A stretch of 62,781 nt of DNA, counting the filler, from Pirum gemmata (taxonomy: Eukaryota), in the NCBI GenBank assembly GCA_002812295.1. It is 30 parts of 30 records of this genome, joined end to end, with 100 filler letters (N's around TTAATTAATTAA, not from the genome) between each part and the next. Parts side by side here need not be neighbours in the genome. Positions count along the whole stretch, not along the records: positions 43,657 to 45,611 come from PDIN01009753.1; 29 more parts are not named here. One strand, 5' to 3'. The notes under the pieces are model-generated. The model was not told the DNA's origin. It was given only the letters and a program-made list of their open reading frames with translations, and did not search any database. Below are positions 44,439 through 45,471 of this stretch, in pieces. Within the stretch, counting starts at the first letter, position 1. Each line of letters starts with the position of its first letter. The position numbers and the translations under genes are program-made.

Positions 44439-45471
44439 TTATTTCAATTCTCAACATAAAAAGATTCTTGACCTCACTAGAGCACATATGAAAGATAAAG
44501 ATGCTATTTTTATGCCGAAAATAACGATCAATATGAATAAAAAACGTAATCATAACAGTGAAAAAAACGTTGGTAATAGTACTAGTACTGATACCAGTTC
44601 GTTGCATTACAAATTTTCCGATGACTATGTTGAAGTAATTGTGTTAAATATTTCGGATGCTATCACTGGTTTAAGAAAAAAACTAACAAAAGAAAACCCA
44701 TTACTCCGAGTAAATTATATTTATAATAATAATGAATATAGTAACAACAATGGCATCATCGGCAACCGTGATGAAGACAAAGTAGTACAATTTATCGAAA
44801 TTCAACTCGTTTACAATCAAACTTTTCAACACACTATTGCCTACGTATATAGAAGTACTGCTTGTTCTGCTTTCGAGCTCAAAACTGTCGACACTCTACA
44901 AAATATTAAAGTGGCTACAACCAATACAATGATGGATTATTATTTAGGAGCTTCTTTTAATAGTAACAACAAAAATTTAGAAAAGCATGAAATGGAGAAA
45001 AATAGAATGCTTTGTTCAGCTCATTGGCTTATGCCTGCACAGGCCAAAGACCAAGAACGGCAGCACCGATTGATGGAACTTGGGGCGACTACTCCATGCC
45101 AAGGGATTGAGACTTCTGACTTCCTCGAAATTATGGGTAGAAAAAGAAAGTTATACGCAGAATATAAACAAGAAATACAACAACAACAACAACAACAACA
45201 ACAACTTGATCGTAAATATAATGATATGTTTTTTTGTTATTCTCCAAAGCCACAACCATTGAGTTATTGCCTTGCTAAATTACAGAAGAGTTATCAACCC
45301 CGATCTAGTTATAAAAATATCAACGCAAGCATTATTTTTAAATACGTTACGTCAGGATCCTTTGTTGTACTTAATATATTGTTTGGTTTCATTTTGGCCT
45401 TATTGTCTATATTTGGTTTTAGAAAAGAAAAACATTTATTCAATGGGATTCAGAGAAAACAGCAACAGTAA
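43657..45471 (+). CDS. NCLDV/Mimiviridae-type poly(A) polymerase catalytic subunit homologue with C-terminal TM helix (5' end in gap)
   Basis: Frame is open from the scaffold start; KKIITIVEKYI...YGGTAINNLL...FY...EIPDYDFFS.NA..DA.EL.D...HEGTFKVYV...VADIS...APINYLRM...ELSRPEGNTKRWGKVAKRLALLNK.HP. Confidence 0.88.

What the first reader, a model, noticed from the sequence alone, without database searches (positions are those of the whole stretch)
45300..45471. The viral-type PAP carries a C-terminal tail-anchor helix
Seen: the last ~45 aa have a single hydrophobic stretch (FVVLNILFGFILALLSIFGF) followed by a short basic tail (RKEKH...RKQQQ). Known: this is tail-anchored protein architecture, and characterised viral PAPs are soluble. 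Inference: a cytosol-facing, membrane-tethered (ER or mitochondrial outer membrane) RNA-tailing enzyme, perhaps for localised cytoplasmic polyadenylation or antiviral tagging. I know of no described system like this.
Basis: partly seen in the sequence, partly recalled or inferred. Interest (0 to 1): 0.8.

Follow-up and report, generated by a model that had tools for sequence, protein, structure and literature searches.

The report
Virus-derived poly(A) polymerase turned membrane protein
A single-celled eukaryote carries a giant-virus-type poly(A) polymerase gene that has gained a predicted membrane anchor at its end, and its one known counterpart also starts with a predicted signal peptide, so the enzyme likely faces the inside of the secretory pathway or the cell surface rather than the cytosol.

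Summary
ORF 43657-45471 encodes a giant-virus-type poly(A) polymerase (PF19244; fold matches Megavirus/Mimivirus PAP) with intact catalytic aspartates. It ends in a 20-residue hydrophobic helix (45361-45420) and a 16-residue tail. Hydrophobicity alone is cheap in this AT-rich DNA, but the one eukaryotic orthologue found (Pirum gemmata, 36% identical) has a homologous helix and tail. None of 60 complete viral PAPs has one.

The tail-anchor reading is doubtful. The orthologue begins with a signal-peptide-like sequence (my own rule, narrow pass; no SignalP). Signal peptide plus C-terminal helix means a type I membrane protein with the enzyme in the lumen or outside the cell. Both proteins also lack the viral dimerisation helix, replaced the basic viral tail and share a new cysteine pair.

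The window's own N-terminus is missing: the window is a string of about 2 kb pieces joined by linkers, so neighbours and upstream DNA are uninformative.

Best reading (0.5): a domesticated viral nucleotidyltransferase redirected into the secretory pathway, probably with a new acceptor. A cytosol-facing tail-anchored PAP remains possible (0.27). Ten paper searches showed no description of it.

The parts
43657..45611 (.). The whole assembly piece (1955 bp) that holds the gene; bounded by 100-base linkers, so DNA on either side is probably not adjacent in the genome
   Evidence: 29 linkers carrying a six-frame-stop 12-mer; 26 of 28 inner pieces are 1880-2000 bp; 0 of 29 junctions share a 12-mer
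43657..45471 (+). Open frame of the viral-type PAP, 5' end missing; no intron needed
   Evidence: similarity to P0003 starts 24 codons before the first in-frame Met (M33 of P0001), so the true start is off the piece
43666..43821 (+). Asn-rich tract of about 52 codons where viral PAPs have the D1 dimerisation helix
   Evidence: translation; a profile of homologue N-termini scores this frame -9.2 bits against 54-59 for homologues
43861..44352 (+). Catalytic nucleotidyltransferase domain D2 (residues 17-180): G41-G42, D64, D66, D114, and R162/K165/R169
   Evidence: PF19244 at residues 27-157; 60% identical to P0003 over 164 columns; these residues invariant in 67 of 67 aligned sequences; positions
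44353..45087 (+). Duplicated, non-catalytic NTase-like domain D3, strongly diverged
   Evidence: 29% identity to P0003; only 13 of 34 columns conserved in homologues are kept by both eukaryotic proteins
45088..45252 (+). D4 helix region ending in the conserved Y-x-P motif
   Evidence: 6 of 7 conserved columns kept
45235..45270 (+). New cysteine pair C475/C486, shared with P0003 (C496/C507); candidate disulfide next to the membrane
   Evidence: Cys within 3 columns in 0 of 230 homologues at both places; the other four Cys are in 218-230 of 230
45361..45420 (+). Predicted transmembrane helix, 20 residues, 5 Phe
45421..45471 (+). 16-residue tail starting R-K, and stop codon; predicted cytosolic if type I
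   Evidence: the orthologue's tail also starts R-K (13 residues)
45517..45522 (+). AATAAA, possible polyadenylation signal
   Evidence: common in AT-rich DNA, weak

Best explanation
This is a giant-virus-type poly(A) polymerase gene with intact catalytic residues, shared with Pirum gemmata and likely domesticated in their common ancestor, that has gained a predicted C-terminal membrane helix and likely works as a single-pass type I membrane enzyme with its catalytic domain in the secretory-pathway lumen or on the cell surface. Shown: family, catalytic residues, conserved helix and tail, no detectable D1, replacement of the basic viral tail, new cysteine pair, one clade of two eukaryotic proteins. 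Inferred: the orthologue's N-terminus is a cleaved signal peptide; the window's protein has one too; the helix is a stop-transfer anchor with R-K on the cytosolic side; short Phe-rich helices suit ER/Golgi residence (recalled). Most speculative step: it keeps Mg-ATP chemistry but transfers AMP to a new luminal acceptor, a glycan or protein hydroxyl rather than an mRNA 3' end (about 0.55 given luminal topology; RNA acceptor about 0.3).
For: P0003 starts M-K, 14 uncharged residues, then a V-x-S site at 21; its next Met is residue 96, next to the catalytic aspartates, so this start (or an unseen upstream exon) is needed for a whole enzyme. By one rule 1 of 379 other homologues and 30 of 9808 internal windows pass; that one exception, P0168, looks chimeric because its 83-84% identical viral relatives have a normal N-terminus. 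Helix and tail are homologous in both proteins. Six of six Cys are shared, two of them new. Homologue tails after Y-x-P are 39% K/R (median of 212); here 14-15%. D1 is not detected, and D1-deleted Mg561 is monomeric and inactive on RNA (PMC4402537, passages). The strand beside the active site reads V-E-A-K-x-x-G in homologues but is replaced in both proteins by a shared H-T-S-T motif. D2 is 60% identical against 29% for D3. The two proteins form a clade at SH-aLRT 100 in both trees. A luminal NTase-fold enzyme has precedent in FKRP (PMC6965139, passages).
Against: The signal peptide rests on one gene model from one species; the window's own N-terminus is unseen. My rule was written after seeing the sequence and P0003 passes narrowly (2.06 against 2.0); its core is Thr-rich; no trained predictor was available, and the ESM Atlas gave no usable hit for residues 1-50. 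N-glycosylation sequons are not enriched (7 against 5.5 expected; 2 against 4.5). Four of the six Cys, including a disulfide seen in cytosolic Mg561, are viral, so cysteines do not prove a luminal site. P0001 is still basic (pI 9.2; P0003 5.8) and keeps R162/K165/R169 and the D4 helix, which fits RNA binding. No luminal acceptor is identified.
Confidence: 0.5

Rival explanations
1. Tail-anchored, cytosol-facing RNA-tailing enzyme on ER or mitochondria: a one-protein equivalent of TENT5 plus FNDC3, or an OAS1-p46-like antiviral enzyme.
For: The helix lies within 36 residues of the C-terminus with a short basic tail. ATP and RNA are plentiful in the cytosol. The ATP site, R162/K165/R169 and the D4 helix are kept. 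Membrane anchoring could replace D1 as the means of pairing. The window's N-terminus is unknown.
Against: Signal-peptide-like start of the orthologue; no D1; basic tail replaced and new Cys pair.
Confidence: 0.27
2. The two orthologues differ, or one gene makes both forms: a luminal form from the first start and a cytosol-facing anchored form from an alternative start or poor signal recognition.
For: Weak, Thr-rich hydrophobic core in P0003; the two proteins differ in charge (pI 9.2 against 5.8) and N-terminal region.
Against: P0003 has no second Met before the active site; no evidence for isoforms.
Confidence: 0.1
3. The gene belongs to a virus (integrated or co-cultured) of these protists, not to the host.
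For: The piece is 1955 bp with no other gene, so host synteny cannot be shown; the frame has no intron; all other homologues look viral.
Against: Host-style Asn and Gln runs inside the frame; GC3 0.27 lies within 0.25-0.35 of four other window ORFs, though a viral PAP gives 0.32, so this test is weak; an orthologue in a second species on a long shared branch; ViralRecall found no reliable giant-virus insert in the P. gemmata genome (PMC11244446, passage); no such form among 60 complete viral ORFs.
Confidence: 0.07
4. The C-terminal segment is a GPI-anchor signal, giving a lipid-anchored surface enzyme.
For: A signal peptide plus a C-terminal hydrophobic stretch is the GPI pattern (established knowledge).
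Against: Both proteins have 13-16 polar, charged residues after the helix; GPI signals normally end the chain.
Confidence: 0.04
5. The helix is chance read-through into AT-rich 3' DNA.
For: 12-25% of random open frames here are as hydrophobic.
Against: Homologous helix and tail in the orthologue, 0 of 5000 shuffles.
Confidence: 0.02

Closest known systems
Mimivirus R341 / Megavirus Mg561 poly(A) polymerase (PF19244; PDB 4wse, 4p37; PMC4402537)
   Same: D2-D3-D4 layout, catalytic acidic triad, the three alpha-7 basic residues, the D3-D4 cysteine pair
   Different: Soluble homodimer needing D1; here D1 is not detectable, and a membrane helix, a new Cys pair and (in the orthologue) a signal-like start are added; encoded in a eukaryote's assembly
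TENT5/FAM46 poly(A) polymerases tethered to the ER by FNDC3 (PMC13291444, abstract)
   Same: A poly(A) polymerase placed at a membrane
   Different: Cellular family, cytosolic, tethered through a partner, no helix of its own; matches only the rival reading
OAS1 p46 (PMC8357416, abstract)
   Same: ATP-using enzyme anchored to endomembranes by its C-terminus (NTase fold recalled)
   Different: Prenyl anchor, cytosolic, makes 2-5A; unrelated in sequence
Fukutin / FKRP (PMC6965139, passages)
   Same: NTase-like enzyme acting on a glycan in the secretory pathway; a precedent for how a luminal version could work
   Different: LicD family, CDP-ribitol donor, N-terminal anchor (recalled); no Pfam or fold hit to it among the top matches
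Endogenized giant-virus genes of ichthyosporeans (PMC11244446; PMC5294986; passages)
   Same: Giant-virus DNA in the same host group
   Different: Those are mostly silenced, polymorphic multi-gene inserts; this is one gene conserved between two species with host-type targeting signals

Membership tests
Nucleocytovirus poly(A) polymerase (PF19244) | Pfam score above the curated cut-off | tested here: met
   103.4 bits against 30.2; P0003 95.5
Nucleocytovirus poly(A) polymerase (PF19244) | G-G ... D-x-[DE] ... D catalytic signature | tested here: met
   G41 G42 D64 D66 D114; invariant in 67 of 67 rows
Nucleocytovirus poly(A) polymerase (PF19244) | Duplicated NTase fold (D2 + D3) plus D4 | tested here: met
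   Model pLDDT 76.5; best Foldseek matches 4p37, 4wse, then vaccinia VP55; the model was built on an alignment of viral PAPs
Mimiviridae-type self-processive PAP | N-terminal D1 domain-swap helix | tested here: not met
   P0003 1-60 scores 2.7 bits, like its shuffles; window frame -9.2; homologues 54-59. The window's extreme N-terminus is unseen
Mimiviridae-type self-processive PAP | Homodimer | not tested
Mimiviridae-type self-processive PAP | Adds poly(A) to RNA 3' ends | not testable with these tools
   Needs an enzyme assay
Tail-anchored protein | Single hydrophobic helix near the C-terminus with a short tail | tested here: met
Tail-anchored protein | No N-terminal signal peptide | tested here: inconclusive
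   Unseen in the window; apparently violated in the orthologue (ad hoc rule)
Type I single-pass membrane protein | Cleavable N-terminal signal peptide | tested here: inconclusive
   Orthologue passes an ad hoc rule narrowly; 1 of 379 other homologues passes; not seen for the window's protein
Type I single-pass membrane protein | One helix followed by basic residues (positive-inside) | tested here: met
   R-K directly after the helix in both proteins; this also fits a mitochondrial tail anchor
GPI-anchored protein | Hydrophobic stretch at the very end of the chain | tested here: not met
   13-16 polar residues follow
Giant endogenous viral element | Cluster of viral genes around it | not testable with these tools

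The most novel reading that the evidence does not exclude
An animal-relative protist lineage captured a giant virus's mRNA-tailing enzyme and turned it inside out: a signal-peptide-bearing, membrane-anchored nucleotidyltransferase that adenylates something in the secretory lumen or on the cell surface (glycans, proteins, or RNA that enters that space). No luminal or ecto poly(A)-polymerase-family enzyme turned up in my searches.
Probability: 0.45. Interest if true: 0.85.

Novelty: new variant of a known kind. Interest (0 to 1): 0.63.

Why it matters
Giant-virus DNA is common in protist genomes, but cases of a viral gene kept, conserved and re-engineered by the host are rare. Here the catalytic core of a viral PAP is conserved between two species while its targeting has changed. 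If luminal, it would be a PAP-family enzyme in a compartment with no known mRNA, implying a new adenylation substrate or RNA tailing outside the cytosol. If cytosolic, it would be a PAP with its own membrane helix. Either way the question is small and testable with one 5' RACE and one topology assay. Its reach is limited: only two species are known to carry it.

Tried and rejected
1) A hydrophobic ATG-started frame just left of the gap (43453-43554) first looked like the missing signal peptide. Rejected as evidence: the gap is a linker between unrelated pieces, and 7 of 68 gap edges and 161 of 3000 random ends show such a frame.
2) 'Host gene neighbourhood' from the window's other ORFs: rejected for the same reason.
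3) Expression: no RNA holder listed. Runs X1 and X2 are contigs of unrecorded type. X2 has no cover on 45215-45560 and neither run covers 42250-43556; these blanks are not used as evidence.
4) A third eukaryotic member: none among the best 120 of 1772, 1 hit for the C-terminal region, best 150 of 1302, best 120 of 128 short proteins, metagenome and viral contig scans (no confirmed relative; one viral contig each, of the same length). Lower-ranked hits were not seen.
5) A D1 remnant in P0003: not detected.
6) Sequon enrichment: none.
7) Viral PAP with a signal peptide (P0168): probably chimeric.
8) Viral donor lineage: unresolved. Sister was P0149 (support 90) among 53 rows and P0195 (75) among 40 rows, each a subsample of 134 representatives; a 76-row tree did not finish. 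No root or AU test was run, so direction of transfer is inferred from distribution only.
9) Single-sequence fold of P0003 was unusable (pLDDT 36.6).
11) NCBIfam: nothing useful. Earlier scan findings: none in 3 look-ups.

Full report
What is in the sequence. The finding lies at the end of an open frame running from 43657 to a stop at 45469-45471 on the + strand. I use the translation from 43813 (P0001, 552 aa). It matches PF19244, the nucleocytovirus poly(A) polymerase catalytic subunit, at 103.4 bits. Its only match among solved-structure sequences is Megavirus Mg561 (4p37, E 3.8e-10). An AlphaFold model built on 29 aligned sequences (pLDDT 76.5) matches 4p37 and 4wse, then vaccinia VP55, and viral PAPs fill the named rows among the top 21 of the viral library. 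G41, G42, D64, D66, D114 and R162/K165/R169 are invariant in a 67-sequence alignment. By the alignment they correspond to Mg561's catalytic triad and alpha-7 basic residues as described in PMC4402537 (passages).

The C-terminal helix is real. Residues 517-536 (45361-45420) have a 19-residue hydropathy mean of 2.57 and are followed by a 16-residue tail beginning R-K. In this AT-rich DNA that alone is weak: 743 of 3000 random stop-free frames, and 242 of 2000 without repeats, reach 2.26. What settles it is the best homologue, P0003, named by its source as Pirum gemmata (EukProt), 36% identical over 96% of the query. It has a 20-residue helix, R-K and a 13-residue tail; the two helix-plus-tail segments align at score 46 against 22.8 +/- 4.4, with 0 of 5000 shuffles as high. 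Other homologues, unnamed and mostly metagenomic, lack it: 0 of 118; 3 of 266, all three short sequences that end early; 0 of 60 distinct complete ORFs from 82 contig loci, 81 of them viral-collection loci. The nearest ESM Atlas clusters are 96-100% viral. One contig of run X1, RNA by guess only, spans 45216-45468 with no gap.

The window is not a chromosome stretch. Twenty-nine gaps of 100 bases carry a six-frame-stop linker, 26 of 28 inner pieces are 1880-2000 bp, and none of 29 junctions shares a 12-mer. The gene sits alone on a 1955-bp piece. Similarity to P0003 begins 24 codons before the first in-frame Met, preceded by about 52 Asn-rich codons that run to the edge of the piece. So the true N-terminus is missing, and the 520-aa database model (P0002) is cut short. 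I first took a hydrophobic frame left of the linker as the missing start and withdrew it: 7 of 68 gap edges show one.

The orthologue changes the topology. P0003 starts M-K, then 14 uncharged residues and a V-x-S site at residue 21. Its next Met is residue 96, beside the catalytic aspartates. A simple rule for signal peptides passes P0003, 1 of 379 other homologues and 30 of 9808 internal windows. I wrote the rule after seeing the sequence and P0003 passes narrowly, so this is suggestive, not a prediction by a trained tool. The one exception, P0168, seems chimeric, as its 83-84% identical viral relatives start normally. A signal peptide plus one C-terminal helix defines a type I membrane protein, with the large domain in the lumen or outside (established knowledge); a tail anchor needs the absence of a signal peptide.

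Other changes point the same way, none decisively. Both proteins have six cysteines at matching places; four are in 218-230 of 230 homologues, and the pair C475/C486 next to the membrane is in 0 of 230. The basic tail after Y-x-P (median 39% K/R in 212 homologues) is replaced (14-15%). The D1 helix is not detected; Mg561 without D1 is monomeric and inactive, and its basic D4 is proposed to bind RNA (PMC4402537). The V-E-A-K strand beside the active site is replaced in both by a shared H-T-S-T motif. D2 is 60% identical between the two proteins, D3 29%, so catalysis looks maintained. Against: sequons are not enriched, P0001 remains basic (pI 9.2, while P0003 is 5.8 against a homologue median of 9.25), and D4 keeps 6 of 7 conserved columns.

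Origin. The two proteins form one clade (SH-aLRT 100) on a long branch in two trees of 53 and 40 rows, subsamples of the hits; the sister group is unresolved and the trees are unrooted. No third eukaryotic member appeared in the listed hits of five protein searches or four contig scans (33, 42, 43, 88). Asn and Gln runs in the frame resemble those in other ORFs of the window, and PMC11244446 reports no reliable giant-virus insert in P. gemmata by ViralRecall (passage; its two supplements have no mention of this family). One old capture of a single viral gene is the simplest account, but host synteny is untested.

How it most likely works. Shown: family, active site, conserved anchor, altered ends. 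Inferred: co-translational entry into the ER, signal cleavage, stop-transfer at the helix, R-K tail in the cytosol, catalytic domain luminal or extracellular, possibly with an extra disulfide. Speculative: it uses ATP and Mg to transfer AMP to a luminal acceptor, more likely a glycan or protein than mRNA; FKRP shows that this fold can work on glycans in the secretory pathway (PMC6965139, passages). I put this at 0.5. Mixed topology 0.1, a viral rather than host gene 0.07, GPI 0.04, chance 0.02.

Novelty. It is a member of PF19244 by sequence and fold but fails the D1 test for Mimiviridae-type self-processive PAPs. Ten full-text searches (listings seen, with passages from PMC4402537, PMC11244446, PMC5294986, PMC6965139 and PMC11286789) showed no description of this gene or of a membrane-anchored viral-type PAP. 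The library lacks most subscription papers, and large virus-eukaryote transfer surveys (recalled, not seen) may list the gene in supplements without comment. Verdict: a new variant of a known kind, real and surprising, with the key question (which side of the membrane) resting on one orthologue. Interest 0.63.

Noticed in passing
window 1-62781: The window is about 30 short assembly pieces joined by 100-base linkers with stops in all six frames (29 linkers; 5 plain N gaps). Any neighbourhood or operon-like claim across those linkers is unsafe.
   Followed up: yes
window 43909 (P0002): The database gene model starts at an internal Met and lacks the first helix of the catalytic domain; the gene is 5'-truncated by the piece's edge.
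   Followed up: yes
window 4559-54040: 24 runs of (TTAGGG)3 or more, on either strand, many inside pieces rather than at ends; telomere-like repeats used as interstitial microsatellites.
   Followed up: no
window 16327-16668 (-): Ankyrin-like repeats of a type I recall as common in giant viruses and some protists (family not tested).
   Followed up: no
window 47852-49054 (+): Four-helix membrane protein with a weak LHFPL/claudin-like match (PF10242, E 1.4e-07) and a long Gln-rich tail.
   Followed up: partly
window 12395-14041 (+): Uninterrupted ammonium transporter ORF (PF00909, E 3.6e-83).
   Followed up: partly
window 54912-55874 (-): A stretch of about 30 codons occurs twice within one piece, a local duplication or assembly echo.
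   Followed up: no
window 60354-61772 (+): ORF with a signal-peptide-like start and one membrane helix, a type I layout with no Pfam family above cut-off.
   Followed up: partly
L001:138-4074: Viral PAP two genes from a major-capsid-like ORF (name recalled, not tested), with an ordinary soluble basic C-terminus.
   Followed up: no
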